NCBI GenBank assembly: GCA_903831305.1
Contig: CAIKXE010000011.1
Location: 12,002 to 76,001, forward strand
Source of the DNA: an uncultured bacterium
GTDB taxonomy: Bacteria > Patescibacteriota > Minisyncoccia > Phycocordibacterales > GWA1-40-21
Direction: 5' to 3'
DNA length: 64,000 nt
Shown here: positions 292 to 39,777 of the stretch, piece by piece
Layout of the letters: each line of letters opens with the position of its first letter
Position numbering within the stretch: the stretch's first letter is position 1
Position numbers and translations under genes: made by a program
The notes under the pieces: model-generated
What the model was told of the DNA's origin: nothing
What the model saw: only the letters and a program-made list of their open reading frames with translations
Databases searched by the model: none

Positions 292-1188
292 TTAATCGTT
301 TGTGCTGTAGTGTGCCTTAAGATTCTCTACATGCTGGGATGGAGAGATATCCACGGTTTGGCATAGAAGGGATAGTTTTCCTATGATTAACAGGATACTT
401 TCTTCAGTTAGACGTCCTTGCTCGAACTTTTTGAAATATTGGATTAGATCATCTATCTGGAGTACTCCTTCTATTGGTGGTGTTTTTATTTCACAAGCTT
501 CAGTAAAGACAACGATGCTTTCAAAACTATTTTCGGGGATAGCCGGAAACAGCTCCTTTAGCGCCATTATATGGGACCAGTTTTGTCTGATGGGATTTTG
601 AAATTGAAACTTATTTTCTCCACCCGGCAATGACTGTGTCCAGCTCTCTTGGTCTTTGCTACCAAATATCCAACCTTTATAATCCTTGCTTTCAATTACA
701 AAAATTCCAAATTTTGATATAACAAGGTGGTCTATCTGCGAGGAACCATTATTAGTTGCCGGGATGATCAGATTGTTGAAAATATAGTAGTCTTTATAGT
801 TTAAGCCTTCAGCGAGAATATCAGCCACTTCTTGTTCACCCCAGGATAGACCTTTAGTATAACACCGACTTGTGTGCTTTCTATAATTAATTTCGGCAAT
901 ATCTTCCGTCTTTGGATTAGCGGGTATTGATTCTGTATTATATGCGGCGCTCCATCCCAAAATCTTTCTTATGATTTTGACTATTAGGAAAACAATTACA
1001 AATAAAATACCGAGGGAGAAGATAGCACCAATAAATACTCCAGGTGAAGAGGTAAAAAATCCAATCAACAACAAAGAACCGACAAAGACAAATATGGGTT
1101 TTATCATTGAATCATCTCTTGAATTACGATATGCCGATCGGCGTAAATAATATGAACCTCTTTTTCTGTAGTTGTGAAAGTAACCCAT
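292..1188 (-). CDS. NERD-domain (nuclease-related domain) protein with N-terminal membrane anchor
   Basis: Hydrophobic N-terminal helices (IFVFVGSLLLIGFF, LGILFVIVFLIV). The C-terminal region ...IDHLVISKFGIFVIESKDYKGWIFG... resembles NERD-family proteins (family assignment from memory of the fold). Confidence 0.55.
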   Translation of the reverse strand: MGYFHNYRKRGSYYLRRSAYRNSRDDSMIKPIFVFVGSLLLIGFFTSSPGVFIGAIFSLGILFVIVFLIVKIIRKILGWSAAYNTESIPANPKTEDIAEINYRKHTSRCYTKGLSWGEQEVADILAEGLNYKDYYIFNNLIIPATNNGSSQIDHLVISKFGIFVIESKDYKGWIFGSKDQESWTQSLPGGENKFQFQNPIRQNWSHIMALKELFPAIPENSFESIVVFTEACEIKTPPIEGVLQIDDLIQYFKKFEQGRLTEESILLIIGKLSLLCQTVDISPSQHVENLKAHYSTND

Positions 1189-1189
1189 A

Positions 1190-2032
1190 TTAATTACAAT
1201 TTAACGCTTTACGCCAACCGGCATCAGTAGCTTCTTTCTCAGTACAGAACCACCTTTCACCCTTACTTTCATCTATCGTTGTTTTAGCATAGGACCCACA
1301 ACCTATCATATGGTAGATCTTTTCCTTTGTTGAGCCAATATTACCCTTGATGGAGCAGGTACTCGTCCCATTTGTCTGGGTAGCTGCACCGGTAGTGGTG
1401 ACCCCAGCCGTTGAGGTAGCGTTTGGACAAACACTATCTCCCCACAGGCCAGCTTTATTAACCTCAGCCTCTTTTTGCGCTTTCTTGAACTCTGACTGAT
1501 ATTTATAGGGCACATCATAAGTATACTCGTAAGCATAGCCCTCCTTAATCATCAGGAGATTAAAACTGGTCCCATCTTCAAGAAAAACATATCTAAGTAA
1601 CCGGTCGTACTTATCTCTTTCGCCAGAAATTATATCAGCTTCCAAATATACTTTCTGACCACTTAAAAGTTTCTTAGCCTTATCTGAGGCTTCTCGTCCA
1701 AAACACTCTACTGGCTTCCTAGGGTCCACTGTTTCCGGTGTGTTTATTCCTATCAGCCTTACTCTCTCTGTTTTACCATCAAGTGAGACATCAATAGTAT
1801 CGCCGTCCACCACTTTGACTACATCAAGCAACTTCAGATCTGTTGTGAGTGGTTTGACAGAAAGACTTGCTCCAGTACTAGAAGCTATGGACCCTGCTAC
1901 CGTATTTATCTGCTCCTTTTTTGTGTTGGTATCATGACTAGATAGGGAGATAAAAATAATTAATAATACAACTGCTATAATTCCTGTAACATACGCCCTA
2001 TTTTTAAAAATATCTTTTATTTTATTGATCAT
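1190..2032 (-). CDS. secreted/membrane-anchored thermonuclease (staphylococcal nuclease, SNase-like) with Cys-containing C-terminal domain
   Basis: N-terminal TM anchor. SNase motifs [42 protein letters not shown]-terminal ...[14 protein letters not shown]...[19 protein letters not shown]... conserved Cys module. Confidence 0.8.
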
Positions 2033-2152: not shown

Positions 2153-3949
2153 ATGCAAAAATATACAGTTAATCAGTATTTTGTAAGCAATATATTAAAT
2201 TGGGTTCAAGAAAAGGAAATAGCGATCCCCGAGATTCAGCGACCATTCGTTTGGGATTCAGTGAAGGTCCGTGATTTAATGGACTCTTTATATAAAGGTT
2301 TTCCTATCGGATATATTATTGCGTGGAAGAACCCTGATGTTCGCTTGAAAGATGGAACTATATCAGGTGGTAAAAAAGTATTAATTGATGGCCAGCAACG
2401 CATTACGGCACTTAGGGCGGCGGTTCTTGGTCAAAATATAGTAAATACTGATTACAAAGAAGGACGTATTTATATTGCCTTCCACCCAATTACCGAAGAG
2501 TTCGCAACACTTACACCGGCTATCGAAAAGGACAAGGCTTGGATTCCAGATATTTCTAAGTTAATGACTAAAGATGGCGGACTCTTTCAGGATGTTACAA
2601 ATTATTGTGAAAAAAATCCTGAAGTAAGCAGAGATCTTATAGAAAGGAATATAGAAAAATTACTTCAGATTAAGAGTAAGCAAGTTGGATTTATTGAACT
2701 TGATTCAAATTTGGACATTGAGACGGTCACAGAAATATTTATTCGCATTAACTCCAAAGGGGTAGTCTTAAGTCAGGCGGATTTTGCCATGTCCAAGATT
2801 GCCTCATATGACAATGAAGATAATTTTGGAGTGAACTTAAGAAAGTGTATTGATTATTTCTGTCACCTTTCTCGTGAACCGCATTTTTATAAATACATAA
2901 GTGAGAACGACCAGGAGTTCAGTAAGACCCAGTATCTTTCCAAGATAGCCTGGCTTAAAGATGAAAATGATGATCTGTATGATCCTGATTACTCAGACGT
3001 ATTAAGAGTTAGTTTTACAAAACAGTTTGAAAGAGGAAAGATGGCTGACCTGGTAGGATTACTTTCGGGAAGGAATTTTGAAACAAGGAGTTTTGAGCAA
3101 TCAATAATGGACGAGTCGTTTCAGAAGTTAAGCATGGCTCTATTGGACTTCGTAAACGAAACATATTTTAAAGATTTTGTGATGGCTATCAAGTCCTCCG
3201 GTTTTATAAGCAAGGATTTGGTCAATTCACAAAATACCTTAAACTTTGCATATATTTTATATCTCAAGCTTAGAGAAAAAGGCGTAAACAGGGATGAGAT
3301 TAAACGATTAGTTTCAAGGTGGTTCGTGATGTCTTTATTGACCGGCAGATATTCTGGTTCACCAGAGAGTAAGTTTGATTTTGACATCAAACAGATTTCA
3401 AAGGATGGCGCTGATAAGGTGTTAAAAGCAATTGAGGATGCGGAGCTATCTGATGCTTATTGGAATTTTGGCTTGGTCCAGGCGCTCGATAAGGCTACTA
3501 TAAATAGCCCCTTTCTGAACCTGTTCTTTGCTGCTCAAATTAAGGCTAATGACAGAGGCTTCTTGTCCACGGACATAACGGTGGGAAGCATGATTGAGCA
3601 CAGAGGTGATATACATCATCTATTCCCAAGGGATTATTTGAAATCTAAAGGCTTAGAGCGCGGTGAATATAATCAAATTGCAAACTTTGTGTATGCTCAG
3701 TCGGAAATTAATATCAATATTGGAAACAAAACACCGAAGGGCTACATGCTAGATGTCATTGAGCAGACAATGGGCGGCAAATCAAAGTATGGAGGAATTG
3801 ATAATAAAGAGATTCTGATTGAAAATCTAAGACAGAACTGTATCCCTGAAGGTTTTGAGAAAATGGAAGTCGGTGATTATGAAAATTTTCTTAAAGATAG
3901 GCGTAAGTTGATGGCAAAGAAGATAGAGGGGTATTATAAGAGTTTGTAA
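2153..3949 (+). CDS. GmrSD-family DUF262/DUF1524 protein (type IV restriction-like; ParB-like NTPase/nuclease N-domain + HNH/His-Me C-domain)
   Basis: N-terminal DUF262 hallmarks IPEIQRPFVW and LIDGQQRITAL. C-terminal DUF1524-like HHLFPRDYL. Confidence 0.8.
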   Translation: MQKYTVNQYFVSNILNWVQEKEIAIPEIQRPFVWDSVKVRDLMDSLYKGFPIGYIIAWKNPDVRLKDGTISGGKKVLIDGQQRITALRAAVLGQNIVNTDYKEGRIYIAFHPITEEFATLTPAIEKDKAWIPDISKLMTKDGGLFQDVTNYCEKNPEVSRDLIERNIEKLLQIKSKQVGFIELDSNLDIETVTEIFIRINSKGVVLSQADFAMSKIASYDNEDNFGVNLRKCIDYFCHLSREPHFYKYISENDQEFSKTQYLSKIAWLKDENDDLYDPDYSDVLRVSFTKQFERGKMADLVGLLSGRNFETRSFEQSIMDESFQKLSMALLDFVNETYFKDFVMAIKSSGFISKDLVNSQNTLNFAYILYLKLREKGVNRDEIKRLVSRWFVMSLLTGRYSGSPESKFDFDIKQISKDGADKVLKAIEDAELSDAYWNFGLVQALDKATINSPFLNLFFAAQIKANDRGFLSTDITVGSMIEHRGDIHHLFPRDYLKSKGLERGEYNQIANFVYAQSEININIGNKTPKGYMLDVIEQTMGGKSKYGGIDNKEILIENLRQNCIPEGFEKMEVGDYENFLKDRRKLMAKKIEGYYKSL

Positions 3950-3957
3950 TTGTAATT

Positions 3958-6900
3958 ATGTCTAAAGAGCCTAGAAAAACAAATAAATCTAACGATATAA
4001 ATGAAACTTTTTCATACGGTGTAGTTTATGTTTATTCTATTCCGGACGAAAAACATAAGGGGCGTTTAAAAATCGGTAGTGCAACTATAACTTCAGCCAA
4101 GTCAACTCAAGATGACGTCAATTTAGCTGCTGAAGAGCGAATACAGCAACAAACAAAAACGGCTGATATTTCTTATGTACTTGAGCATGCAGAGCTCGCT
4201 ATTACAAATGACAACTGTTTTTTCCGTGATCATGATGTTCATGAAGTTCTCAAGCGATCAGGTTATGAACGTAAAACAGAGAATGTTAAAAATGCACACT
4301 CGGAGTGGTTTGAAGTTAGTTTAGACGTTGCAAAGAAAGCAATTCAAGCTGTAAAAGAAGGGCGAACAGCATTAATGACTGGAGAAAAAATTGCTCCCAA
4401 GACTTCTGAATTTTCTTTTCGTCCAAACCAGCGCGAAGCGATTGATAAAACTATCAGAGCCATTAAGAAAAATCGCAAACATTTTCTTTGGAATGCAAAG
4501 ATGCGTTTCGGTAAAACATCAGCGGCTATGCAAGTGGCTAAAGAGAATGAAATGAAAAGAGTCATTATCGTCACTCATCGCCCTAGCGTAAGTGTTGATT
4601 GGTACGATGACTTCAACAAAGTATTTATTGGCACAAACTATGAATACTCTTCAAAAACAAAAGGCTTAAATATAAGTACCCTCATGAAAGGTGACAAACC
4701 TTTTGTTTATTTTGCATCTTTACAAGATTTACGCTTATCAAAACGGGTAGTAGAGGATGGGTCCGCTGGATCTAAGGCTGCAGGATTTGATAAAAATGAT
4801 GAAGTTTTTGATACAACCTGGGACATGCTAATTATTGATGAAGCCCATGAGGGAACACAAAGTAATCTCGGGGATGCTACTTTTTTAAAGATACCAACAA
4901 ACTTTACGCTACAGCTTTCCGGCACACCTTTTAATATTCTACATAAGCACGAAGAAGAAGATATATACACCTGGGACTATGTAATGGAACAGGAAGCAAA
5001 GCTCAATTGGGACGAGCGCAATCCCGGAGTACCAAACCCTTATGCTGAACTACCAGCTCTGAGTATTTTTACTTACGACATAGATACATTTGCTAGCCAT
5101 ATTGGTAAATTAGGCGAAGGTTTTCATGATTCCTTAGACGGTGCTTTTAAATTCCATGAGTTTTTCCGTGTACAAAAAGATAATGAGGGTAATGATACTG
5201 CTGAGTTTGTCCATGAGCCGATGGTTAAGAAGTTCTTAGATTTATTGGCTGATGATAAGTTAAAGACAAAATTCCCATACGCGACAGAAGAATACCGTAA
5301 CTATAACAAGCATTCCCTCTGGTTATTACCGAATCGTGTCAAAGTTATTGAAGCAATGGAGAAATTGCTTAAGGACCACCAGATTTTTGGTTCTAATCAA
5401 TTTGGCGTTGTAAATATTTCTGGAGATAGTCGTGATGATGAAGAAGATAAAGACGCCAAGGATCGCGTTACCAAGGCAATTAAAAATTATGACTATACAA
5501 TAACACTAACAGGTCAACGTCTCACAACTGGGGCATCTGTTCCTGAATGGACAGCAATCTTTATGATGTCTGACACAAACTCTGCCACTACCTACTTACA
5601 GACAGCTTTTAGATGTCAAACTCCAGCAAGAATAGATGGTAAGCTAAAAACACAAGGATATGTATTTGATTTTGCTCCAGATCGTACTTTGAAACTGGTC
5701 GCTGAGGCGATAGAGCTTAACCACAAATCAGGAAAGACTAATTCACCAGAACAGAAAGAAGCGATGAGACAATTTCTTAACTTCTGCCCAATTTTAGCCG
5801 CGGAGGGTGGAACAATGAAGCTATATGATGTGGGGAAAATGCTCGTTCAATTGAAAAAAGCCATTATTGAAAGGGTTAGCCGTAATGGTTTTGATGATCC
5901 TAAATTATACAACGATGAGTTGTTACGACTTGATGAGCTAGATGTAGCTAAGTTTAATGCGCTCAAAGCTATTGTTGGTAAATCTACTAGTGAAAGAATA
6001 AACGAAATTGAGATTAACAGTCTTGGTATGACTGATCTCCAAGCAAAGAAAGCAGAAGAAGCTGAACGTAAGAATAAACAAAAGAAAGAGCTATCAGAAG
6101 AAGAAAAGGAAAATTTGAAAAAATTAAAGGAAGCCCGTGAGCAGAAGCAGACGGCTATTAGTATATTACGCGCTGTGAGTATACGTATGCCGATGTTGGT
6201 ATATGGAGCAAATGTATCAATCCACGATGATATAACTTTGCAAAAGTTTATTGAGCTTGTTGATGAAGAGTCTTGGCAAGAGTTTATGCCGGTGGGACTA
6301 ACAAAAGAAAAGTTTAAGGAATTTACTAAATATTATGATGAGGAAGTATTTAAGGGGGTTGCTCACAGTATTCGGGCCAAAGCTTTTGATTGTGATGACC
6401 TCTTACCGACAGATAGAATACGCACAATTTCTGAAATATTCAGCACTTTTAAGAATCCAGACAAGGAAACCGTCCTAACACCTTGGAATGTGGTGAATAT
6501 GCATCTAACCAAAGCTTTTGGTGGCCATGATTTTTGTAGTGAGGTTATAGATAAAAAAGGAAAACCAGAATGGAAGAGTTATAATGTTGATACTAGTGTA
6601 TGGTCCCAGGACGACACAAAGATCCTTGAAATAAATTCAAAGTCTGGTTTGTATCCCTTGTTAGCATGTTATAATGTATATTCGAGACAGCTTAAGAATA
6701 GTAAAGAGAGAAATAAACTAGAAGAGAAGATATTTAGACAAGTATGGAATAAGGTTTTGGCGGATAATATTTTCGTGCTTTGTAAGAGTCCAATGGCTGT
6801 GAGTATCACAAGACGAACGCTTGCCGGATATAGCGGTGCTAGGACGAATATTATTTATATTAAGGACCTGGTTAATAAACTCCAACAGAAAGGTGGTTTT

Positions 6901-7974
6901 AAGGATTATAATTTAAAGAATGAATTATTAGAAAAGTTTAATTTAAAAGATAAAGATATGAAATTCACAGCCGCCGTAGGAAATCCCCCATATCAAATAC
7001 AAACTAAAGATACGAGTGATAATCCTGTCTACCATCTTTTTATGGATGAGTCTTACAAATTAGCAGATAAGGTTGCATTGATTCATCCAGCTCGTTTTTT
7101 ATTTAATGCCGGAAAGACTCCAAAAGAATGGAATAAAAAGATATTAAATGATAAGCATACTAAAGTCATTTTTTATGAACAGCAGTCGTCCAAGGTTTTC
7201 CCGAACACAGATATTAAAGGAGGGATTGCAATAACCTACCATGATATTAGTAAGGATTTTGGTAAAATTGGTTCATTTACTAGTCATCCTGAACTTAAAA
7301 CGATACAGGAGAAAGTCGAGAACCACGACAATTTTGCACCGCTGAGCGGAATGATATACCTACAGAACAAATTTAATCTTGATGCGTTATATAAAGATAA
7401 TCCATCGTTTAAAAAAATAATTGGAAGTAGTGGCAGAGAGAAACGTTTAACTTCTCCAATATTTGAACAACTTAATGTTTTTGTGGATAATCCAAAGCAC
7501 GATACAGATGTTAGAATTTTTGGTTTGATAAAAAATAATCGAACCTATAAATGGATAGGCAAAAACTATTTAGAAAAACATCCGAACTTAGAGAAGTATA
7601 AAGTCTTAGTTGCTAAGGCTAATGGAAGCGGGGCTCTTGGTGAGGTGCTCTCATCTCCTATTATCTGTGAACCTTTTACAGGTTTTACATTTAGTTTTAT
7701 CTCATTTGGCGCCTTTAATGATGAAGATGAAGCTCAAGCGGTTCTAAAATATATCAAAACAAAGTTTGCGCGAACTATGTTGGGAGTATTAAAAATTACA
7801 CAGGATAATCTTCCTAGGACTTGGTCAAAAGTTCCTCTTCAGAATTTCACTAATAAATCTGATATTGATTGGTCGAAATCTATTCCTGAGATAGATAAAC
7901 AACTGTATGCGAAATATGGTCTTGATAAAAAAGAAATAGACTTCATCGAGACACATGTGAAGCCTATGGTTTAA
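3958..7974 (+). CDS. fused T5orf172 (GIY-YIG-superfamily) domain - SF2/SNF2-like DEAH helicase - gamma-class N6-adenine DNA methyltransferase (Type ISP/IIG-like restriction-modification enzyme) with C-terminal putative target-recognition region
   Basis: N-terminus GVVYVYSIPD...GRLKIGSAT...HEVLKRSGYERK...EWFEV (T5orf172 pattern). Helicase motif I FGKTSAA, motif II LIIDEAHEG, motif III LSGTPF and Q/R motif TGQRLTTGAS. MTase motif X-like VLTPWNVVNM, motif I-like ILEINSKSGLYPLLA and motif IV AVGNPPYQ. About 330 aa follow NPPY. Confidence 0.8.
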   Translation: MSKEPRKTNKSNDINETFSYGVVYVYSIPDEKHKGRLKIGSATITSAKSTQDDVNLAAEERIQQQTKTADISYVLEHAELAITNDNCFFRDHDVHEVLKRSGYERKTENVKNAHSEWFEVSLDVAKKAIQAVKEGRTALMTGEKIAPKTSEFSFRPNQREAIDKTIRAIKKNRKHFLWNAKMRFGKTSAAMQVAKENEMKRVIIVTHRPSVSVDWYDDFNKVFIGTNYEYSSKTKGLNISTLMKGDKPFVYFASLQDLRLSKRVVEDGSAGSKAAGFDKNDEVFDTTWDMLIIDEAHEGTQSNLGDATFLKIPTNFTLQLSGTPFNILHKHEEEDIYTWDYVMEQEAKLNWDERNPGVPNPYAELPALSIFTYDIDTFASHIGKLGEGFHDSLDGAFKFHEFFRVQKDNEGNDTAEFVHEPMVKKFLDLLADDKLKTKFPYATEEYRNYNKHSLWLLPNRVKVIEAMEKLLKDHQIFGSNQFGVVNISGDSRDDEEDKDAKDRVTKAIKNYDYTITLTGQRLTTGASVPEWTAIFMMSDTNSATTYLQTAFRCQTPARIDGKLKTQGYVFDFAPDRTLKLVAEAIELNHKSGKTNSPEQKEAMRQFLNFCPILAAEGGTMKLYDVGKMLVQLKKAIIERVSRNGFDDPKLYNDELLRLDELDVAKFNALKAIVGKSTSERINEIEINSLGMTDLQAKKAEEAERKNKQKKELSEEEKENLKKLKEAREQKQTAISILRAVSIRMPMLVYGANVSIHDDITLQKFIELVDEESWQEFMPVGLTKEKFKEFTKYYDEEVFKGVAHSIRAKAFDCDDLLPTDRIRTISEIFSTFKNPDKETVLTPWNVVNMHLTKAFGGHDFCSEVIDKKGKPEWKSYNVDTSVWSQDDTKILEINSKSGLYPLLACYNVYSRQLKNSKERNKLEEKIFRQVWNKVLADNIFVLCKSPMAVSITRRTLAGYSGARTNIIYIKDLVNKLQQKGGFKDYNLKNELLEKFNLKDKDMKFTAAVGNPPYQIQTKDTSDNPVYHLFMDESYKLADKVALIHPARFLFNAGKTPKEWNKKILNDKHTKVIFYEQQSSKVFPNTDIKGGIAITYHDISKDFGKIGSFTSHPELKTIQEKVENHDNFAPLSGMIYLQNKFNLDALYKDNPSFKKIIGSSGREKRLTSPIFEQLNVFVDNPKHDTDVRIFGLIKNNRTYKWIGKNYLEKHPNLEKYKVLVAKANGSGALGEVLSSPIICEPFTGFTFSFISFGAFNDEDEAQAVLKYIKTKFARTMLGVLKITQDNLPRTWSKVPLQNFTNKSDIDWSKSIPEIDKQLYAKYGLDKKEIDFIETHVKPMV

Positions 7975-7977
7975 ATT

Positions 7978-8910
7978 ATGAAAGTCTCGACGCGTAATAT
8001 TGATATACTCGAAAACACGCTTCGTCGTACCGGTGATTTGCTGGATATTCTTCTATTGGACCGCACCACAAAAAAGAATATCATCTGGGCAACAGATTCA
8101 TATGAAAAACATGGCAGAGATTTTTTAGCTAAAACGAGAATCATGCCAGAATTGGTAACTGGTAAGTGTGGCTTGCTCATACAACCACGCGCTGCTAAAA
8201 GTTTGGATGAACAACGTCTACGCACTAAAGACAAGGCTGAGGTTTTTACACCATTAAAGATTGTAGATCAGATGAATAAAATGATTGAGACTGCTGACCA
8301 CAGTAGTCTGCCTAGTAAAAGTAATTGGCAAGAATACGTTCGTGAATTGAAGATTGAGATTACCTGCGGTGAGGCCCCCTTTATTGTTAGTCGCTATAAT
8401 CCAATTGCAAATACTCGCAAAATTATTAAATTAGATAGTCGCGTTGGTTTTTTAGATAGAAAATTGAAAATAGTATCTAAATATTGTCCTACGAAAAAAG
8501 AGTGGTTGTTTTGGGCAAAAGAAGCTTTTAGGGCAAGTTATGGCTATGAATGGCAGGGGGATAATGTGCTGCTTGCGCGTGAGAACTTGTTGTACACGCT
8601 TATTGACTATTACAAAGCTAAATTTAAAGAGAAACCATCTCTCAAGATACAAGAAGAATTTGCGGAAATTATAAGTTGGAATATATTCCAAATGGACGGC
8701 CTGCGGTACGTTATTCCTATGAGTTGCCATCATGAGAGCAGGGTTATTCCTAGTGTAGCTACGCTTTTTGGTGAAATACCAGGTAAGGTTGAGAAGAATG
8801 AATGTGAAGGCTGTAAGTATAATCGTCCAAATAAACACAACGGAAGACATGTCCAAATTATGGATTGGAGTAAGAATAAGGTAGTAAGGTTCGTGGATTT
8901 AATTAAATAA
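7978..8910 (+). CDS. MTase-like protein carrying HsdM/Eco57I-type motif X and motif I but no NPPY catalytic motif; C-terminal Cys/His cluster (putative Zn site)
   Basis: AEVFTPLKIVDQMNKMI matches the G-E-F-F-T-P-x-x-V motif X of gamma-class N6A MTases. EITCGEAPFIV resembles motif I. No (N/D/S)PP(Y/F) anywhere. C-terminal cluster CHHESR...NECEGCKYNRPNKHNGRH. Confidence 0.45.
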   Translation: MKVSTRNIDILENTLRRTGDLLDILLLDRTTKKNIIWATDSYEKHGRDFLAKTRIMPELVTGKCGLLIQPRAAKSLDEQRLRTKDKAEVFTPLKIVDQMNKMIETADHSSLPSKSNWQEYVRELKIEITCGEAPFIVSRYNPIANTRKIIKLDSRVGFLDRKLKIVSKYCPTKKEWLFWAKEAFRASYGYEWQGDNVLLARENLLYTLIDYYKAKFKEKPSLKIQEEFAEIISWNIFQMDGLRYVIPMSCHHESRVIPSVATLFGEIPGKVEKNECEGCKYNRPNKHNGRHVQIMDWSKNKVVRFVDLIK

Positions 8911-8992: not shown

Positions 8993-11900
8993 ATGAAGAC
9001 ATTTTTTTACAAAAATATTATTTTAAAAATAAAGAGCTTTTTTCAAAAGAAAGAAAGGTCCTTATTAGACATAGCAAATAGAGAAAAAAAGAATAATAAA
9101 GAACTAAAACGTATTGTTAAAAATAAACTTCCACCGCTATGGATGCCATCCGTTTCGTCCTTTCTAAGAATATTTTTTGTAATGATGTTTTTTTGGATAA
9201 TTTCACATCCAAAATATTTAGTAGAGTTAATACTTTCACCGTTACATAGTTTGTTTTTACACACACCATTTCTTAAAACGGTAGTTCCTTACATTATAAA
9301 AATGTTTAGCTTATTACCACATTCAATACCTATTATTAGCGAAGGTGGTAATTTATTAGCAGTTCACGCGGGTGTAGGATCTGTTTTGATTGGGTTAGCC
9401 TTTTTTGTTGCACAAAGTTTAACAGACAAGAGCGATTCTGAAAAATCTAGGGTGCTATTGTATAAAAGTTATTTTTTCCCCTTACTGGTAGCTGAGGTAA
9501 TGGCTTTCTTTTTCTTTATTGGAAAGACCAACGTCTTGGTATATATACCGATTGCAGGAATTGCTTTTTGGACTTTGTATTCTTTGGGTAAGGTAATAGA
9601 TATTCTTGTTAAAGAGTATAAAATGGAAGAAGCGAAAAAGAGAGTTCTTTTAAACGTAACAAAAGAGAATTTTATTAGAATATTAGATAGAGAAACAACA
9701 TATAGAATTGGTAATAATTTTATTTATAAAAAATATGAGAGTAGCGGGATTTTAGATGTCAATCCTTTTGGATTTTCCAGAGATAAAAAGACGGTGGTCA
9801 GAATAAAATCACAAAAAAGTGGTGCAATCGTGGATATTAAAATGAACGAGCTTGAGAGATTAATACTACTATTGAGTCAGGCGGTAAAAGTAGATTTTCC
9901 TATAGGAAATGCTGAGACAACTAACGATAATGGGGTCAAAGTTAAAAGTGAATCACTATGTTGTTTATTAACATTACTAGGTCATAAAATAGAATTAGAG
10001 CAGCCATTATTCGAGATCAAAAAAGAAATCGCTGATAAGATTGGTGTGAAAAGATTAGAAAAAATAATCGAGAGAGTGTTTTTAATAAAAGATGACATCT
10101 CAGAAGTTGAGGCACGTACCGAAGTTTTAAAATTAAAGGATAGGTGTATCCTAGCAATAAACAATCAACAAACAGGAGAATTAGAGAAGATAATAAAATT
10201 GTATGTCGAACTTGTTAATGAATTTTCTAAATATTTTAATTTGTATCATGGCGGATGTTTTTCGTCAGAACAAGCAAGACAGGAAAGAAACTCATTTTTT
10301 GAAAGACTTAAGCCTCTAGACTGGATATCAAAAGATATTAGAGAAATTTTTGATAGAGGGATAAATTCTGAAGATCTAAATATTATCAGAGATGTTGCCT
10401 ACTTGCCCATAATGCTGGTGCAACAAGCTATTGAAAGTAAAGACCATCTTATTTTTCAGGAATTCATACCTTATTCTTTGGTTCTGTACGAAAAAGCCTT
10501 TGATTTCTCAAAAAAAGATAGAGAAAAGGAATCAGAGATAATGTTTGATCGGACTTGGCGATATTTGAAGGAACTATCCGCATATTATCTCGAATCAAAA
10601 TTAAAGGAAGAAGATTACCCTGAGGGTGACTTTAAAGACTATTACATCCAGATACTTAAAATTTTACAGGCACTATTAAAGTCATCATTTGATAAGAAGG
10701 ATTTGACTAATTTTAATAAGTTCTTAAAAGTTACCTCAGATTTATTTAACAGATTAGATAGACCGTACTCAAATTCTTCTTATACTAATACTGAAAAAGT
10801 CTTTAATCTTCTAGACGGTAAACGTCAGGAAATGTTCTTTGGGGTTTCTAGTTGGATTTTATTTATCTTAAAGAACAATAAAGATCTCCAGGTCAGAGAA
10901 TTTTATAATGCAGTACAAAATGAATTACCTTCAGATATCATCGAATTCACAAGGGTGTTTTTACAATCTCATAGTTTTGATACCGAAGATCATTGGGGTT
11001 GGGATTGGTGGGAATCCAGGCCGGATGAGGGCGTACATACGATAAATGTACTTGAAAAACTTGAGCAATTCTTTGTGGTTAGACTATTGATATTATTAGG
11101 ATCAAAAAGTGACCAAGAAATTGAAAAAATTAGTTTACCTCATAATAGGGATTTAGCTTTTCTTGCCGAAGGAACAAGAGACGCAATCAAGATTATAGAT
11201 GATATTGAAAAAAACCCTGGTAATTGGACTTTTATTTTAGATAGCGAATCTGTAAAAAGATGTCTAGCATTACGTAATCTACTTAAAAAAGCACATGATC
11301 AGCAGGAACAAGATGATTTAAGGTGTAAACGTGAAGCTGATATTTCAAGAGATAAAGTTGAAAAATTTAAGAAGTATTTTATTGAAAATTATAAACAGAG
11401 TCATCCAATCAAAGAGATGTTAAAAGACTTTGGTCTTCTTTCAAATAAAACCAATAAAAAAGTTGGAAAAGAGATAAAAAAACTGGGAATTAATACTTTG
11501 TTTGATAAAGGTGCTTTTTTGGGTGATGAGGTCAATTGGTACATTCATTATACGGGAATTAAAGAAGCTTTTGGTTTTGGTAGGAGTATGGTTTATGGTG
11601 AGAATGAATATGTTCTTGGAAAAATCAGAGGTAAAGCTAAAGAAATAACAGAAGATAGGTTTGAAAATACTTTGGCGGGGATCCAATTATCTAACATCGT
11701 CCTTATTGCTACAAACCATGCTGTATGGAAGTTCTTTGAGAGATCAAATAGTAATTGGATACCTAAGTGGCATAGCGAATTTCCTAAAGAGCTCTTCGGT
11801 AATCAAATAATTGAAGGTGTCTACAGATTTAAAGATAAAATCATTCCGGTCTATCAGCTATTTACTTCAGGTTCTAGTAGTTCAGATATCTTTATTTTAG

Positions 11901-12190
11901 ATAAAACTAAAATTGGGAAATTGGTACAATTTTCTCCACTTGAGGATGGTGATAGTACAGATGTATTGTTCGATGTTTTCCTTATAGATGTTCAGGAATT
12001 TATTTTAAACTCTACCTTAATTACCGAATTTATTGATAAGCCTCCACAGTGGCTGTCGGATATTGGTAATAAAGAGAAACAGATTGAACATCTGCAAGAG
12101 TGTGTTTTGATTCATGTCTTTGAAAAAATTCAATTTAAACTTCACAATGAATTTAGTGGGTATATATTACTAACAGATAAGATAAAATAA
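8993..12190 (+). CDS. large (1065 aa) hypothetical protein, N-terminal multi-pass membrane region plus ~850-aa predicted cytoplasmic alpha-rich domain; no recognisable catalytic motif
   Basis: Hydrophobic segments LRIFFVMMFFWIISHP, VLIGLAFFVAQSL, VAEVMAFFFFIG and IPIAGIAFWTLYSLG in the first ~200 aa. The remainder is K/E-rich with no Walker A, HxK or PD-(D/E)xK motif seen. Confidence 0.6.
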   Translation: MKTFFYKNIILKIKSFFQKKERSLLDIANREKKNNKELKRIVKNKLPPLWMPSVSSFLRIFFVMMFFWIISHPKYLVELILSPLHSLFLHTPFLKTVVPYIIKMFSLLPHSIPIISEGGNLLAVHAGVGSVLIGLAFFVAQSLTDKSDSEKSRVLLYKSYFFPLLVAEVMAFFFFIGKTNVLVYIPIAGIAFWTLYSLGKVIDILVKEYKMEEAKKRVLLNVTKENFIRILDRETTYRIGNNFIYKKYESSGILDVNPFGFSRDKKTVVRIKSQKSGAIVDIKMNELERLILLLSQAVKVDFPIGNAETTNDNGVKVKSESLCCLLTLLGHKIELEQPLFEIKKEIADKIGVKRLEKIIERVFLIKDDISEVEARTEVLKLKDRCILAINNQQTGELEKIIKLYVELVNEFSKYFNLYHGGCFSSEQARQERNSFFERLKPLDWISKDIREIFDRGINSEDLNIIRDVAYLPIMLVQQAIESKDHLIFQEFIPYSLVLYEKAFDFSKKDREKESEIMFDRTWRYLKELSAYYLESKLKEEDYPEGDFKDYYIQILKILQALLKSSFDKKDLTNFNKFLKVTSDLFNRLDRPYSNSSYTNTEKVFNLLDGKRQEMFFGVSSWILFILKNNKDLQVREFYNAVQNELPSDIIEFTRVFLQSHSFDTEDHWGWDWWESRPDEGVHTINVLEKLEQFFVVRLLILLGSKSDQEIEKISLPHNRDLAFLAEGTRDAIKIIDDIEKNPGNWTFILDSESVKRCLALRNLLKKAHDQQEQDDLRCKREADISRDKVEKFKKYFIENYKQSHPIKEMLKDFGLLSNKTNKKVGKEIKKLGINTLFDKGAFLGDEVNWYIHYTGIKEAFGFGRSMVYGENEYVLGKIRGKAKEITEDRFENTLAGIQLSNIVLIATNHAVWKFFERSNSNWIPKWHSEFPKELFGNQIIEGVYRFKDKIIPVYQLFTSGSSSSDIFILDKTKIGKLVQFSPLEDGDSTDVLFDVFLIDVQEFILNSTLITEFIDKPPQWLSDIGNKEKQIEHLQECVLIHVFEKIQFKLHNEFSGYILLTDKIK

Positions 12191-12193
12191 TTT

Positions 12194-13696
12194 ATGAAGC
12201 CCATATCCAAATCTCTATTCCTTCAATACTTAATCTGTCCTAAAGACGCGTGGTTTAGGCTGCACCAGCCGGACCTGGAGGAATTTAATGTCTCCTTTTC
12301 GGACCAAAATGTGATGGCCCAGGGTAATGTGGTGGAGGATTGTGCTAAGAAACTTAAGATATTCTCCGGTTTTGTGGAAGTCAAAAGCCGGGCTTTCTCG
12401 GCCAGCAAGGAGATAGACAAGCTGATTGCTGAAGAAGTACCAGCAATCTATCAGCCAACCTTCAGCGTTGATGGTTTTATAATCCGCTGTGACTTTCTGG
12501 TTTGGAATGCCAAAACCAAGAAATGGGACTTATACGAGGTTAAAGGTACAAATTCCAAGAAGGATGACGATGGACCGCGGGACCATATCTCTGATCTAGC
12601 TTTCCAAACAATTGTGCTGGAGCGATACGGTCTTAGCATCGGTAGTAAATATATTGTTCATTTGAACAAAGAATACGTTAGGGGTAAGGAGCTGGATGTT
12701 GAAGAACTCTTTGTTATTAATGATAGCACCGAGCAGGTAGAACTAAAGAAAGCTACTACCGATGCGCAGATGGAGAAAGCTAAGGCGTATTTGAATCAAG
12801 AGGATGAGCCTAAAGACGGCTGTAACTGTCATTTATTAGGTAGAAGTAATCATTGTGAGACATTTAAGAAATCACACCCCGAGATACCGGATTATTCCGT
12901 CCATGATATATCCAGGATAGGTTCAACGCCTGATAAGCTGATTCAACTGGTCAAGAACGGTATCTATCATCTCCACGAAGCGGAAGACATATCTGATTTT
13001 ACCATTCCCCAACAAAACCAGATTCAGGCCCATAAGACAAAGAAAGAGATAATTGTCAGAGAAGAAATTGCTAATATTCTGGACAATTATACCTATCCGC
13101 TGTACTTCTTTGATTATGAGACCTTTGCACCTGCCGTGCCTATCTATGAAGGATTTAGCTCATATCAGCGTATACCAATCCAATTTTCCTTGCATATTAT
13201 TGAAAAGATGGCCGGACCTGTCCGTCATCTGGACTATCTTCACCTAGAGAATACTGACCCTTCAGAAACTGTTGCTAAGATGCTAGGCGAGGTCATAGAT
13301 CCTAAAGGAACAGTCCTGGCCTGGAATGTCTCTTTTGAGAAAGGCGTTACATCGGAGATAGCGGAAAGACTGCCTAAGTATGAGCCGGTGATAACGAGGA
13401 TTTGTGGCCAGATGAGAGACCTTCGGGATATTTTTTCCCAGCAGCATTATGTCCATAAGGATTTTAAAGGGAAAACCTCAATTGAAGCTGTTATGAACGT
13501 GTTATTGCCAGATATGACTTATGATCATTTACCATATACTGGTAGTGATGTGGGTTTTGTCTGGTGGAATGATATAGTCAATCAAGGTAAGGAACCTTCT
13601 GAAAGGGAGGAGAAGATACATCTAATCCGGGAATACTGTAAACAAGATACTTTTGTAATGGTGGAGATTTTTAGAATATTGAATAGTATTATATAA
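12194..13696 (+). CDS. two-domain nuclease: Cas4/RecB-like PD-(D/E)xK domain with Fe-S Cys cluster + DnaQ-like DEDDy 3'-5' exonuclease domain (DUF2779-like architecture)
   Basis: The Cys arrangement C15...CNCHLLGRSNHC (C-x-C-x8-C) matches Cas4/AddB Fe-S clusters. PD-(D/E)xK-like ...DGFIIRCDFLVW...WDLYEVKG. Exo I YFFDYETFAP, Exo II-like AWNVSFEKG and Exo III YCKQDTF. Confidence 0.65.
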   Translation: MKPISKSLFLQYLICPKDAWFRLHQPDLEEFNVSFSDQNVMAQGNVVEDCAKKLKIFSGFVEVKSRAFSASKEIDKLIAEEVPAIYQPTFSVDGFIIRCDFLVWNAKTKKWDLYEVKGTNSKKDDDGPRDHISDLAFQTIVLERYGLSIGSKYIVHLNKEYVRGKELDVEELFVINDSTEQVELKKATTDAQMEKAKAYLNQEDEPKDGCNCHLLGRSNHCETFKKSHPEIPDYSVHDISRIGSTPDKLIQLVKNGIYHLHEAEDISDFTIPQQNQIQAHKTKKEIIVREEIANILDNYTYPLYFFDYETFAPAVPIYEGFSSYQRIPIQFSLHIIEKMAGPVRHLDYLHLENTDPSETVAKMLGEVIDPKGTVLAWNVSFEKGVTSEIAERLPKYEPVITRICGQMRDLRDIFSQQHYVHKDFKGKTSIEAVMNVLLPDMTYDHLPYTGSDVGFVWWNDIVNQGKEPSEREEKIHLIREYCKQDTFVMVEIFRILNSII

Positions 13697-13727
13697 TCAA
13701 TTTAATACAAAAATCTGTAAATAAAAT

Positions 13728-15132: not shown

Positions 15133-16077
15133 CTACCAGCAAATCACTGGCTCCCCATCAGTAACTTCATTTAGATAGGCTTTAGCTTCTTCAATTCCTC
15201 CTATTTTATCTATCAGGCCTAGTTCCTTAGCTTTCTCTCCTAAGACGGATGAACTATCAGCAAAGCTTTTGACCGCAGCCATGGTGAGTCCACGATTCTC
15301 AGAAACTGACTTGATAAAATTGTTATAAATAATATTTATATCTCTCATAAAAAGAGCCTTTTCACCGGCAGTTAAGGCTTTGTCAGGATTGCCAGAATCT
15401 TTAAACTCCCCAGAAGAAATTTGCTCATAGATCAACCCTTCCTTTTTATTTTTCTCTACATTGCTGACATAAGACATGGTGACGCCAATACTACCCACAT
15501 CAGAATTAGCCGAGGCAAATATTTTATCCGCACTACTTATTGCCCAATAGGCAGATGAAACGCCTAGATCTCGTATAACAGCAATGACTGGTTTTGCACT
15601 AGCTTTTACCGCCTTAGCAATTTCCTCACCGGCTACTGGAGAACCACCACCAGAATCAACTTCTATTAGAATAGCCTTAATGTCTGGATCTAAATTAGCA
15701 TCTTCAATTGACCAGGTGACTTCTTCGCTGGAGGTTTGATCATAATCAAAGAATGAATCACCTTCAGCGTGATTCGGAATATAGGTGACGACTGTGCCAT
15801 GGAGGTTAATACCTATAACAGAACAAGCTTGATCTGAACTAGTCTCTGATTCACTACTATAATCACTCGAAGATAAATCTTCTGAGTTGTAACCAGAAGA
15901 TCCACCAAAAACATAAAAAGAAATAAAGCAACCAATAAAGACACCGGCGGCAATGACAGCTATACCAATAAGCGCTGGCGAAATCTTTTTTAAAAAAGCG
16001 TAGACTTTTTTAACCTGACCTTTTTCTTTTTTTGTTACATTTATTCCTTCCATAAAGTTATAGTGATTATAGCACAA
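15133..16077 (-). CDS. sppA: signal peptide peptidase SppA (S49 family), membrane-anchored
   Basis: KPVIAVIRDLGVSSAYWAISSADKIFASANSDVGSIGV is the S49/ClpP-fold core. N-terminal TM anchor. Confidence 0.75.
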   Translation of the reverse strand: MCYNHYNFMEGINVTKKEKGQVKKVYAFLKKISPALIGIAVIAAGVFIGCFISFYVFGGSSGYNSEDLSSSDYSSESETSSDQACSVIGINLHGTVVTYIPNHAEGDSFFDYDQTSSEEVTWSIEDANLDPDIKAILIEVDSGGGSPVAGEEIAKAVKASAKPVIAVIRDLGVSSAYWAISSADKIFASANSDVGSIGVTMSYVSNVEKNKKEGLIYEQISSGEFKDSGNPDKALTAGEKALFMRDINIIYNNFIKSVSENRGLTMAAVKSFADSSSVLGEKAKELGLIDKIGGIEEAKAYLNEVTDGEPVICW

Positions 16078-39290: not shown

Positions 39291-39670
39291 TTGATTTATA
39301 GATTAATAATAAATTTACACGAGGGACTAACTCGTGTGCTATGAGGATCTATATCGACCTGATTCTCATTGATATAGTTTTAAATGGTTTGTGGTGATAA
39401 TTTAAAAGGGGGTATGGGGGGGGCTGTCTGATTTGTTCCATGGCCGGTAGCGGGTGGATAGGGGGAAACGACCCTATTTGTGTCCTGGGCTACTATTTTA
39501 AAAAAGGTGGGGGGTTGTTTCAAAAGTGTGTCTCCATAAAATTTCTGCCGGAATTTTTGGAAAAGGACGTTTGCCTTATTTTGACTTTGGAGCTATGATT
39601 ATGGAGTCGGAAAAATTGAATAAATAGTAATCTAAATCAGAGAGTAAAATCTCTGACATGATGAAAAAAT

Positions 39671-39777
39671 CTGCAACAGTTTAAAGAACCCAGCATATGG
39701 GGCTACTGTTGCAGTCATATCGGGAAACCGGTATGGAGGGCCACAAGCTCTCACCTATGTGCTGGGCTTTTTGCGTC
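39671..39777 (+). ncRNA. structured RNA candidate (leader/riboregulator or sRNA) ending in intrinsic terminator
   Basis: Perfect 10-bp stem ctgcaacagt/actgttgcag. A 7-bp GAAA-tetraloop hairpin atatcgg-gaaa-ccggtat. Long-range cccagcatatg/tatgtgctggg pairing followed by ctttttg. Confidence 0.4.

What the first reader, a model, noticed from the sequence alone, without database searches (positions are those of the whole stretch)
12194..13696. Fusion of Cas4-like Fe-S PD-(D/E)xK nuclease and DEDDy 3'-5' exonuclease as terminal gene of the operon
C15 plus C-x-C-x8-C (CNCHLLGRSNHC) and the ...DLYEVKG core fit Cas4/AddB-type nucleases. The C-terminal half has Exo I (FFDYETF), Exo II-like (AWNVSFEKG) and Exo III (YCKQDTF) motifs of DnaQ-family exonucleases. 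A dual 5'/3' end-processing enzyme coupled to a helicase-MTase is reminiscent of DNA-degradation effectors of defense systems. I recall this two-domain architecture as a DUF2779-type protein of unknown function, but I cannot verify that here.
Basis: partly seen in the sequence, partly recalled or inferred. Interest (0 to 1): 0.55.

Follow-up and report, generated by a model that had tools for sequence, protein, structure and literature searches.

The report
DUF2779 double nuclease behind restriction genes
This gene encodes a member of a widespread, never-tested protein family that joins two different DNA-trimming enzymes in one chain; like many of its relatives it lies directly behind restriction-enzyme genes, which hints that it degrades DNA those enzymes have cut.

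Summary
It is a full-length member of Pfam DUF2779. It has an N-terminal Cas4/Exo5-like PD-(D/E)xK nuclease (D100, E115-x-K117) with a conserved four-cysteine set, a short helix-hairpin-helix-like linker, and a C-terminal DEDDy 3'-5' exonuclease (D307, E309, E382, Y481-x3-D485). These residues are 81-100% conserved in 239 homologs. An AlphaFold model (pLDDT 93) matches Cas4, Exo5, MrfB and polymerase proofreading domains. This two-nuclease architecture is already published (NAR 2014; mSphere 2026) but has never been tested biochemically.

The proposed coupling to the helicase-methylase is not supported. That module, and the 1065-aa gene in between, occur elsewhere without DUF2779.

A broader link does hold. 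In 12 of 14 close relatives, and in about 25-40% of distant ones, restriction-modification or type IV restriction genes of many different types lie directly upstream on the same strand. In one Patescibacteria lineage the gene instead behaves as a vertically inherited core gene, and a Mycoplasma homolog is quasi-essential.

My best reading is a partner-independent DNA-end-degrading nuclease that assists restriction, in a RecBCD-like way. Confidence is moderate.

The parts
12194..13696 (+). DUF2779-family gene, 500 aa: Cas4-like nuclease + helix-hairpin-helix-like linker + DEDDy exonuclease
   Evidence: ORF. Pfam PF11074 at 122.8 bits. 5891 family clusters with full-length matches. AlphaFold pLDDT 93.4, pTM 0.88.
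12194..12877 (+). N-terminal Cas4/Exo5-like PD-(D/E)xK nuclease domain (aa 1-228). Catalytic D100 (12491-12493), E115 (12536-12538), K117 (12542-12544), plus Q138 and Y161.
12236..12238 (+). C15, the N-terminal cysteine of the putative 4Fe-4S site
   Evidence: 88% conserved. Lies at the end of the first helix, as in Cas4.
12821..12856 (+). C210-x-C212-x8-C221, the three C-terminal cysteines of the putative 4Fe-4S site
   Evidence: 94%, 81% and 95% conserved. Spacing C-x-C-x8-C in 153 of 239 members; C-x5-C-x5-C in others.
12878..13093 (+). Linker of aa 229-300 with a helix-hairpin-helix-like motif (S235, H237, D238, I-S-R-I-G243)
   Evidence: Nearly invariant residues. Helices 247-254, 271-282 and 289-297 in the model. 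PF10391 (pol lambda fingers) hits 2 of 100 members at E 8.7e-5. The helix-hairpin-helix assignment is my reading of the motif and is weakly supported.
13094..13693 (+). C-terminal DEDDy 3'-5' exonuclease domain (aa 301-500). Exo I D307/E309 (13112-13120), Exo II N378-x2-F-E382 (13337-13339), extra invariant D409 (13418-13420), Exo III Y481-C-x2-D485 (13634-13648).
8993..12190 (+). Upstream neighbour p1065 (stop codon 3 nt before the DUF2779 ATG). It is an independent gene, not a partner.
   Evidence: No Pfam, NCBIfam, PADLOC or PDB sequence hit. Only 33 homologs. They occur as solo genes without DUF2779.
3958..8910 (+). T5orf172-SF2 helicase-Eco57I-type methylase (3958-7974) plus its 310-aa partner (7978-8910): a self-contained, mobile restriction-modification-like module
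   Evidence: Pfam and PADLOC. More than 8000 homologs at 68-82% identity across phyla. The partner is always adjacent and DUF2779 is absent in 4 of 4 other contexts.
2153..3949 (+). GmrSD-type (DUF262) type IV restriction gene, the left conserved flank of the exchangeable cassette
   Evidence: PF03235 E 7.5e-32. 83.5% identical to the GmrSD of L005, while the genes between it and DUF2779 are replaced.

Best explanation
What it is: the gene encodes a cytoplasmic, motor-less double nuclease of the DUF2779 family.

Shown by sequence and by the structure model:
- an N-terminal Cas4/Exo5-like PD-(D/E)xK nuclease (D100, E115-x-K117), stapled by a four-cysteine site of the kind that binds a 4Fe-4S cluster in Cas4, AddB, Dna2 and Exo5;
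- a short DNA-binding-like linker;
- a C-terminal DEDDy 3'-5' exonuclease with a complete active site.

Inferred mechanism: at a DNA end, the 5' strand is threaded into the Cas4-like domain and the 3' strand into the DEDDy domain, so both strands are degraded. This resembles the nuclease half of RecBCD or AddAB without a helicase. Unwinding would come from end fraying or from whichever translocase is present.

Inferred role here: the gene is not a subunit of the neighbouring helicase-methylase. It is a partner-independent ancillary nuclease. Its start lies 3 nt after the upstream stop codon, so it is probably co-transcribed at the 3' side of a mosaic restriction island (GmrSD, the T5orf172-helicase-methylase pair, p1065). 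It would degrade DNA ends produced by restriction. In reduced genomes the same activity would also serve general DNA-end processing, which would explain why some lineages keep the gene as a core gene.
For: Architecture and active sites. Published in-silico descriptions agree (PMC3985635; PMC13621843).

Link to restriction genes in close relatives (at least 59% identical), 12 of 14 loci:
- Different restriction systems lie directly upstream on the same strand: type I hsdMSR plus GmrSD (L005); N6_Mtase/Eco57I (L009); N6_N4 methylase (L007); SNF2 plus methylase plus ResIII (L100); type III Mod plus Res (L103, L105); two methylases plus a NOV_C nuclease (L104); T5orf172-helicase plus GmrSD (L107); DpnII restriction-modification (L101); Dcm-type methylase plus Vsr (L102); GmrSD-HNH (L106).
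- In 8 of these 12 the gap to DUF2779 is at most 13 nt.

Link in wider sets:
- Unbiased scans of the -1/-2 genes in 76 species found ResIII in 7, Hhe-type helicase-nucleases in 4, OLD/AriA-type in 3, type III restriction enzymes in 3, HsdR in 2 and GmrSD in 2. The +1/+2 genes are mostly housekeeping, for example PheRS in 8.
- In 51 distant metagenome loci not used to choose the search seeds, restriction-type homologs make up 26 of 198 upstream genes against 9 of 185 downstream genes (Fisher p = 0.007).
- Plasmid copies in Arcobacter, Planktothrix and Selenomonas also sit after nuclease, helicase or ATPase genes.
- Large upstream helicase/ATPase genes abut DUF2779 more tightly than other upstream genes (median gap 3 nt against 19 nt, p = 0.02).
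- Identities of upstream Res-type helicases track those of their DUF2779 in 10 locus pairs (r = 0.88, small sample).

Precedent: UvrD-Cas4-like fusions sit in the same two contexts (type III Mod/Res, and Dcm plus Vsr) and were proposed to be ancillary defence nucleases (PMC5704561). ACE1, a Cas4-family enzyme, assists Argonaute defence (PMC12094033, abstract only).
Against: - No biochemical or genetic data exist for any family member. The iron-sulfur cluster, substrate, polarity and role are all inferred.
- About 60-75% of loci outside the close clade show no restriction gene nearby.
- In one Patescibacteria lineage the gene is syntenic with PheRS and other core genes, and it diverges in step with them (r = 0.88-0.90).
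- The Mycoplasma homolog is quasi-essential in a phage-free minimal cell, and its authors conclude that the role goes beyond immunity (PMC13621843).
- Defence cargo turns over independently of DUF2779. The Hhe proteins of L032 and L069 are 80% identical while their DUF2779 proteins are 43% identical. The helicase-methylase of L073 is 60-77% identical to the window's, while its DUF2779 is 38% identical. This pattern also fits a hotspot next to a resident gene.
- The seed-based counts are biased, because the seeds were taken from upstream genes. Only searches are free of this bias.
- PADLOC holds no model for this protein as a defence component.
Confidence: 0.45

Rival explanations
1. Housekeeping repair or recombination nuclease that merely borders a defence-gene insertion hotspot. 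DUF2779 would be a resident core gene, defence cassettes would land and be exchanged in its 5' flank, and there would be no functional cooperation.
For: - Vertical, core-like behaviour next to PheRS in one lineage.
- Quasi-essential in JCVI-syn3.0 (PMC13621843). A growth-deficient transposon mutant in M. bovis was grouped with replication and repair genes (PMC7373297).
- The same defence gene has inserted independently upstream of distantly related DUF2779 genes.
- Between the window and L005 the cassette was replaced precisely. Nucleotide homology ends 19 nt after the GmrSD stop and resumes 10 nt before the DUF2779 ATG.
- The helicase-methylase module, p1065 and Hhe all occur without DUF2779.
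- None of 50,697 phage records and only 29 of 72,556 plasmids carry the gene.
Against: - Within the close clade there is little conserved synteny on either side, so the gene does not look like a fixed anchor there.
- The association recurs across phyla and on plasmids.
- Junctions of 0-16 nt leave no room for a promoter of its own.
- Res-type helicases and DUF2779 co-vary in several pairs.
- Other Cas4-like nucleases occupy the same two contexts (PMC5704561).
Confidence: 0.35
2. Nucleic-acid turnover or salvage enzyme. In organisms that cannot make nucleotides (Patescibacteria, Mollicutes), the two exonucleases would degrade DNA or RNA fragments, or nanoRNA, to mononucleotides.
For: - The family is abundant and well conserved in Patescibacteria.
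- It is quasi-essential in a minimal Mycoplasma (PMC13621843).
- The M. bovis mutant was isolated in the same screen as nanoRNase and phosphodiesterase mutants (PMC7373297).
- A 5'-nucleotidase gene follows DUF2779 on an Arcobacter plasmid.
- DEDD enzymes include RNases.
Against: - The closest folds are DNA enzymes: Cas4, Exo5, MGME1, Dna2, polymerase proofreading domains and MrfB.
- The neighbourhoods are restriction or helicase genes, not salvage genes.
- The family also occurs in free-living Hyphomicrobium and Bradyrhizobium.
Confidence: 0.1
3. A true CRISPR adaptation Cas4, as some source annotations call it ('CRISPR/Cas system-associated exonuclease Cas4').
For: JGI names for several homologs. 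Weak Cas4 HMM hits. Cas4-like fold.
Against: - No CRISPR-like repeat array in the window.
- No cas gene among the neighbours here, and no Cas1 or Cas2 among the most frequent neighbour families of 76 loci.
- TIGR00372 scores 16.7 bits against a cut-off of 65.
- The DEDDy fusion and the cysteine spacing differ from Cas4.
Confidence: 0.03

Closest known systems
DUF2779 / PF11074 proteins, e.g. MMSYN1_0389 of JCVI-syn3.0 (PMC13621843), family F.17 of the RNase H-like classification (PMC3985635)
   Same: Same family (122.8 bits). Same two-domain order, same D...ExK and D-E-E-D-y residues, and the same best structural relatives (Cas4 7MID/7MI4, MrfB 8UN9).
   Different: The Mycoplasma protein is longer and keeps only two of the four cysteines (PMC13621843). 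The window protein and most of the family keep all four. The Mycoplasma gene is quasi-essential, whereas this one sits in a restriction island.
Cas4 (SSO0001 4IC1, Pcal_0546 4R5Q, Cas4-Cas1 7MI4) and the related Exo5, MGME1 and Dna2 nuclease domains
   Different: Below the Cas4 HMM thresholds. Cysteine spacing is C-x-C-x8-C, whereas from my recollection Cas4 and AddB use C-x2-C-x5-C. No cas genes or CRISPR array nearby. Carries an extra fused exonuclease.
UvrD-Cas4-like fusion proteins encoded next to type III Mod/Res or Dcm plus Vsr (PMC5704561)
   Same: A Cas4-like nuclease found in the same two gene contexts seen here for DUF2779 (type III in L103, L105 and L100; Dcm plus Vsr in L102). Proposed to be an ancillary component of several defence systems.
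   Different: Those proteins carry a helicase and no 3'-5' exonuclease. DUF2779 carries a DEDDy exonuclease and no motor.
RecBCD / AddAB / AdnAB end-processing machines
   Different: DUF2779 has no helicase domains and no Chi-recognition module, and the 3' strand would be handled by a DEDDy domain. The analogy is functional only and is untested.
DEDD exonucleases: family B polymerase proofreading domains, MrfB, DNA polymerase III epsilon, TREX1, Cas2-DEDDh
   Different: The Exo II acid is an invariant Glu. There is an extra invariant D409, an invariant C482 inside Exo III, and conserved H334 and H345 of unknown role.
COG2251 / PF13482 'RecB-family nuclease, TM0106-type' proteins (PMC3985635, family F.13)
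   Same: The other known family that combines a Cas4-like (DUF83) domain with an RNase H-like exonuclease domain. PF13482 weakly hits 35 of 100 DUF2779 members.
   Different: A different family, often with tandem AAA domains (PMC3985635). Not examined here.

Membership tests
DUF2779 (Pfam PF11074) | Match to the family HMM above the gathering score | tested here: met
   122.8 bits against a cut-off of 23.3, aa 304-429, covering the full profile. 100 of 100 diverse homologs also match.
DUF2779 (Pfam PF11074) | Full-length two-domain architecture shared with family members | tested here: met
   Homologs align over residues 4-498 down to 29% identity.
Cas4 / RecB-like PD-(D/E)xK nucleases | Catalytic D...E-x-K core on the restriction-endonuclease-like fold | tested here: met
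   [not shown]
Cas4 / RecB-like PD-(D/E)xK nucleases | Four cysteines (one N-terminal, three C-terminal to the core) for a 4Fe-4S cluster | tested here: met
   C15, C210, C212 and C221 are present and 81-95% conserved, but with C-x-C-x8-C spacing. Actual cluster binding cannot be tested with these tools.
Cas4 / RecB-like PD-(D/E)xK nucleases | Match to curated Cas4 HMMs above threshold | tested here: not met
   TIGR00372 scores 16.7 bits against 65. There is no PF01930 hit for the window protein at E <= 0.01, although 23 of 100 relatives hit it. PADLOC Cas4 model E 1.7e-6. The protein is Cas4-like in fold but is not a Cas4 family member by HMM.
CRISPR-associated Cas4 (adaptation module) | Encoded with cas1/cas2 or next to a CRISPR array | tested here: not met
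   No repeat array in the 64 kb window. No cas hits among the neighbours. No Cas1 or Cas2 among the frequent neighbour families.
DEDDy (DnaQ-like) 3'-5' exonucleases | Exo I D-x-E, Exo II N-x2-3-(F/Y)-D and Exo III Y-x3-D on an RNase H-like fold | tested here: met
   [not shown]
DEDDy (DnaQ-like) 3'-5' exonucleases | Metal-dependent 3'-5' exonuclease activity | not testable with these tools
   Requires purified protein.
UU173 family (NCBIfam NF045869) | Match above the curated cut-off | tested here: not met
   42.5 bits against a cut-off of 225. It is a distant relative only.
Component of the T5orf172-helicase-methylase restriction-like system | Conserved co-occurrence with that system in other genomes | tested here: not met
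   None of 4 other contexts has DUF2779 within 8 kb, while the 306-aa partner is present in all 4. One distant locus (L073) has a frameshifted copy 5 kb upstream of its DUF2779.
Known anti-phage defence systems (PADLOC-DB v2.0.0) | Match to a model of a described defence component | tested here: not met
   Only weak Cas4 models hit. No system model fits.
Ancillary nuclease of restriction systems (proposed, not an established family) | Non-random adjacency to restriction-modification genes | tested here: inconclusive
   12 of 14 close relatives have such genes upstream. In the independent distant set the counts are 26 of 198 upstream against 9 of 185 downstream, p = 0.007. A resident gene next to a hotspot would give the same pattern.

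The most novel reading that the evidence does not exclude
DUF2779 is a generic, partner-agnostic 'finisher' nuclease for restriction and other helicase-nuclease defence systems. It would be recruited, or simply co-expressed, behind type I, II, III, IV and ISP-like systems and behind Hhe- or OLD-type genes. There it would destroy both strands of DNA ends created by them, doing the job RecBCD does in E. coli. In RecBCD-poor reduced genomes (Patescibacteria, Mollicutes) the same enzyme would have become the main DNA-end processor, which would explain the quasi-essential 'unknown' gene MMSYN1_0389 of the minimal cell.
Probability: 0.3. Interest if true: 0.65.

Novelty: new member of a known kind. 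Interest (0 to 1): 0.45.

Why it matters
The family is large: 5891 clusters at 50% identity. It is conserved and untested, and it includes one of the unexplained quasi-essential genes of the minimal cell JCVI-syn3.0.

The residue and fold analysis here gives a concrete biochemical prediction. The protein should be an iron-sulfur Cas4-like 5'-end nuclease combined with a DEDDy 3'-end exonuclease acting on DNA ends.

The neighbourhood survey adds a biological context I did not find in the papers searched. The gene has a strong, type-independent association with restriction genes on its 5' side. If that association is functional, it would define a common accessory of restriction systems and suggest how bacteria without RecBCD dispose of restricted DNA. 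If it is not, the 5' flank of DUF2779 would still be a useful marker of a defence-gene hotspot in Patescibacteria.

Tried and rejected
- Sequence searches against solved structures found nothing usable, with the single protein or with two family profiles. The relationship to Cas4 and to DEDD enzymes is visible only by fold and by weak HMM hits.
- The AFDB50 fold library was unavailable.
- Model coordinates could not be read, so I could not measure whether the four cysteines cluster in space.
- Promoter and terminator scans were no better than shuffled sequence, so the operon boundaries remain unproven.
- Composition is not decisive. DUF2779 has GC3 of 0.44 and p1065 has 0.26, both within about 1.4 sd of the window's genes.
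- No tRNA or Rfam element lies near the gene.
- I rejected p1065 as the partner of DUF2779. Its 33 homologs are solo genes in other settings.
- I rejected the helicase-methylase as the partner.
- I rejected the idea of a single conserved neighbour. Clustering of 965 neighbour proteins from 80 loci found no family present in more than 13 loci.
- I rejected a phage origin, because no phage record matches.
- The seed-based positional counts include the seed proteins themselves. I rely on the unbiased subsets instead.
Full report
**Observation.** The window has an ATG-initiated ORF at 12194-13696 on the + strand, 500 aa. No ORF of 80 aa or more overlaps it on the other strand. No tRNA, Rfam family or tandem array lies nearby.

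**Family and conservation.**
- Pfam assigns residues 304-429 to DUF2779 (PF11074) at 122.8 bits against a cut-off of 23.3.
- The family is large. 1418 of the 8000 scored candidates matched in the 90%-identity cluster database. 5891 clusters at 50% identity matched at E <= 1e-3, and nearly all align over residues 4-498.
- In 239 full-length homologs the predicted catalytic residues are essentially invariant:
  - D100, E115, K117 and Q138 in the N-terminal half;
  - D307, E309, E382, D409, Y481, C482 and D485 in the C-terminal half.
- The cysteines are 81-95% conserved. 153 of 239 members use the C-x-C-x8-C spacing, and others use C-x5-C-x5-C.
- In 100 members only 29-39% identical to the query, the DEDDy residues remain invariant.
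- Two details need correcting. The PD-(D/E)xK aspartate is D100, not D112. The Exo II acid is always Glu.

**Structure.**
- An AlphaFold2 model built on 71 sequences has pLDDT 93.4 and pTM 0.88.
  - N-terminal domain: Cas4-Cas1 (12.9), Dna2 (12.0), type I-C Cas4 (12.0), MGME1 (11.9), SSO0001 (11.5), Exo5 (10.6), AdnAB (10.9).
- Foldseek ranks Cas4 Pcal_0546 and human Exo5 first.
- No solved structure contains both domains together.
- At HMM level the Cas4 relationship is weak for this protein: PADLOC Cas4 E 1.7e-6 and TIGR00372 at 16.7 bits against 65.
- PF01930 hits 23 and PF13482 hits 35 of 100 diverse members.
- Between the domains, residues 229-300 carry nearly invariant S235, H237, D238 and G243 in an 'ISRIG' hairpin. 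I read this as helix-hairpin-helix-like, on weak support.

**What is already known.**
- Majorek et al. 2014 placed DUF2779 in the 3'-5' exonuclease clade of RNase H-like proteins and noted its co-occurrence with a DUF83 (Cas4) PD-(D/E)xK domain (PMC3985635).
- A 2026 paper described the JCVI-syn3.0 homolog MMSYN1_0389 as a Cas4-like nuclease fused to a DEDD(y) nuclease. It found both domains probably active, noted that the gene is quasi-essential, and concluded that the role must go beyond immunity (PMC13621843).
- An M. bovis transposon mutant is growth-deficient in cell culture (PMC7373297).
- Full-text searches for 'DUF2779' and 'PF11074' returned seven and two papers. I read the relevant passages of three of them and saw no biochemical test in those.
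- The architecture is therefore not new. The window gene is a new member of a known but uncharacterised family.

**The local 'operon'.** Upstream on the same strand lie four genes:
- GmrSD_N (2153-3949);
- a 1338-aa T5orf172-ResIII helicase-Eco57I methylase (3958-7974);
- a 310-aa protein that PADLOC scores as a type II methylase (7978-8910);
- a 1065-aa protein with no family hit (8993-12190), whose stop lies 3 nt before the DUF2779 ATG.

Downstream, two more + strand ORFs follow before a convergent SppA gene, so DUF2779 is not the terminal same-strand gene. Signal scans do not define transcription units.

I tested each neighbour as a possible partner.
- The helicase-methylase belongs to a huge family that is 68-82% identical across phyla. 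In four other contexts it is always followed by the ~306-aa partner, GmrSD is adjacent in three of them, and DUF2779 is never within 8 kb.
- The 1065-aa protein has only 33 homologs. In the three contexts examined they are solo genes, two of them close to serine recombinase genes (one of these also beside an AlwI restriction-modification system), and none has DUF2779.
- The island is therefore a mosaic of independent modules, and the specific helicase-methylase coupling is not supported.

**Context of the family.**
- In 80 species-level loci from genome assemblies, mostly Patescibacteria, no single neighbour family is conserved. That set also contains Hyphomicrobium and Bradyrhizobium copies at 42-49% identity, some of them closer to the query than many Patescibacteria copies are, which implies horizontal transfer.
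- Unbiased scans of the two genes upstream found many restriction or defence types: ResIII in 7, Hhe-type SF1 helicase plus endonuclease in 4, OLD/AriA in 3, type III restriction enzyme in 3, HsdR in 2 and GmrSD in 2.
- The two genes downstream are mainly housekeeping: PheRS in 8, ExoX in 5 and DsbA in 4.
- Among proteins at least 59% identical to the window protein, 12 of 14 loci with enough upstream sequence carry restriction-type genes just upstream on the same strand. The types differ from locus to locus:
  - type I;
  - type II (DpnII-like; two methylases plus a NOV_C nuclease);
  - type III Mod plus Res;
  - Dcm plus Vsr;
  - GmrSD;
  - the ISP-like module.
- In 8 of those 12 loci the junction to DUF2779 is at most 13 nt.
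- In 51 distant metagenome loci (29-33% identity), none of which supplied search seeds, restriction-type homologs are 26 of 198 upstream genes against 9 of 185 downstream genes (p = 0.007).
- Plasmid-borne copies in three other phyla also follow nuclease, helicase or ATPase genes.
- No phage record encodes the protein.

**Evidence pointing the other way.**
- In one Patescibacteria lineage DUF2779 is syntenic with PheT and other core genes, and its divergence tracks theirs (r = 0.88-0.90).
- Defence cargo turns over independently. The Hhe genes of L032 and L069 are 80% identical while their DUF2779 genes are 43% identical. The helicase-methylase of L073 is 60-77% identical to the window's while its DUF2779 is 38% identical.
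- Between the window and its closest relative L005, GmrSD and DUF2779 are both 83% identical in protein (76-78% in nucleotides). Homology stops at the gene boundaries, and the cassette between them is replaced by a type I system. More distant backbone genes are 36-66% identical.
- This is what a hotspot next to resident genes looks like.
- On the other hand, the close clade shows little conserved synteny on either side. Large upstream helicase genes abut DUF2779 unusually tightly. In several locus pairs the Res-type helicase and DUF2779 co-vary.

**Interpretation.**
- Shown: a motor-less protein with two complete nuclease active sites, a Cas4-type cysteine set and a strong, type-independent 5' association with restriction genes.
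- Inferred: it degrades both strands at DNA ends, the 5' strand through the Cas4-like domain and the 3' strand through the DEDDy domain. It would serve as an ancillary nuclease for whatever restriction system is expressed with it, and as a general end-processing enzyme in reduced genomes.
- The closest precedent is the UvrD-Cas4-like fusion family. It is found in the same type III and Dcm-Vsr contexts and has been proposed to be an ancillary defence nuclease (PMC5704561).
- I give this reading 0.45, the pure 'core gene next to a hotspot' reading 0.35, a salvage or RNA role 0.10, and a true CRISPR Cas4 role 0.03.

**Verdict.** The domain interpretation is correct but already published. The specific operon coupling is not supported. 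A broader, previously unreported (as far as I could search) association with restriction loci is real but ambiguous as to function. Interest is moderate at 0.45.

Noticed in passing
[not shown]
   Followed up: partly
window 3958-8910 (+): The T5orf172 (GIY-YIG-like)-SF2 helicase-Eco57I-type methylase (1338 aa) plus a 306-310-aa partner form a two-gene module. It is 68-82% identical across Patescibacteria and at least two Bacteroidota lineages (Saprospiraceae, Parabacteroides), with more than 8000 homologs. It sits in mobile-element settings (integrases, T4SS genes, a CBASS-like neighbour), with GmrSD adjacent in 3 of 4 other contexts and in the window. It looks like a single-polypeptide restriction-modification enzyme with an unusual nuclease domain. 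I did not characterise it further.
   Followed up: partly
window 2540-3968 and 12184-13697 versus L005 10-1438 and 9990-11507: This is a precise cassette exchange. Nucleotide homology to the closest relative (76-78%) ends 19 nt after the GmrSD stop and resumes 10 nt before the DUF2779 start. The 8.2 kb in between (ISP-like module plus p1065) is replaced in L005 by a type I hsdM-hsdS-hsdR cluster with extra genes. Backbone genes farther away are only 66-70% identical in nucleotides.
   Followed up: yes
window 292-2032 (-): Two divergently oriented genes lie left of GmrSD. The gene at 1190-2032 matches the PADLOC model C3a212 (SNc nuclease plus LTD, E 9e-50). The gene at 292-1188 has a weak PglW-like kinase hit (E 7e-6). 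A homolog of the first (50% identical) lies downstream of the DUF2779 gene of L104. The defence island therefore probably extends to or beyond the start of the window.
   Followed up: no
window 15133-16077 (-); also L097 7084-7926, L099 15486-16439, L101 8676-9494: An SppA / peptidase S49 gene recurs next to these restriction islands. It follows DUF2779 in the window and in L101, and it flanks the helicase-methylase module in two unrelated genomes. The window copy has a weak hit to the ClpP-related phage head-maturation protease model (E 1e-4). The significance is unknown.
   Followed up: no
window 13112-13648 (residues H334, H345, D409, C482 of the DUF2779 protein): Besides the canonical DEDDy residues, the exonuclease domain has an invariant extra aspartate (D409), an invariant cysteine inside the Exo III motif (Y481-C482) and two 96-98% conserved histidines (H334, H345). 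Their role is unexplained; possibilities include a second metal site or a variant catalytic mechanism.
   Followed up: no
L018, L032, L040, L069 (gene at -1 of DUF2779): Hhe-type proteins (SF1 helicase plus MTES_1575/Vsr-like endonuclease, 1174-1633 aa where complete) lie immediately upstream of DUF2779 (gaps 0-14 nt) in four distantly related genomes. The Hhe proteins of L032 and L069 are 80% identical while their DUF2779 proteins are 43% identical. This implies independent insertion at the same position.
   Followed up: partly
L073 1-4801: A copy of the helicase-methylase module is broken into several ORFs by frameshifts or stops. It is 60-77% identical to the window's and lies 5 kb upstream of a distantly related DUF2779 gene. 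It may be a decaying system or the result of assembly errors.
   Followed up: partly
window 39629-39752 (+): Rfam LOOT RNA (RF03000), 78.8 bits against a gathering score of 46.4. Unrelated to the finding.
   Followed up: no
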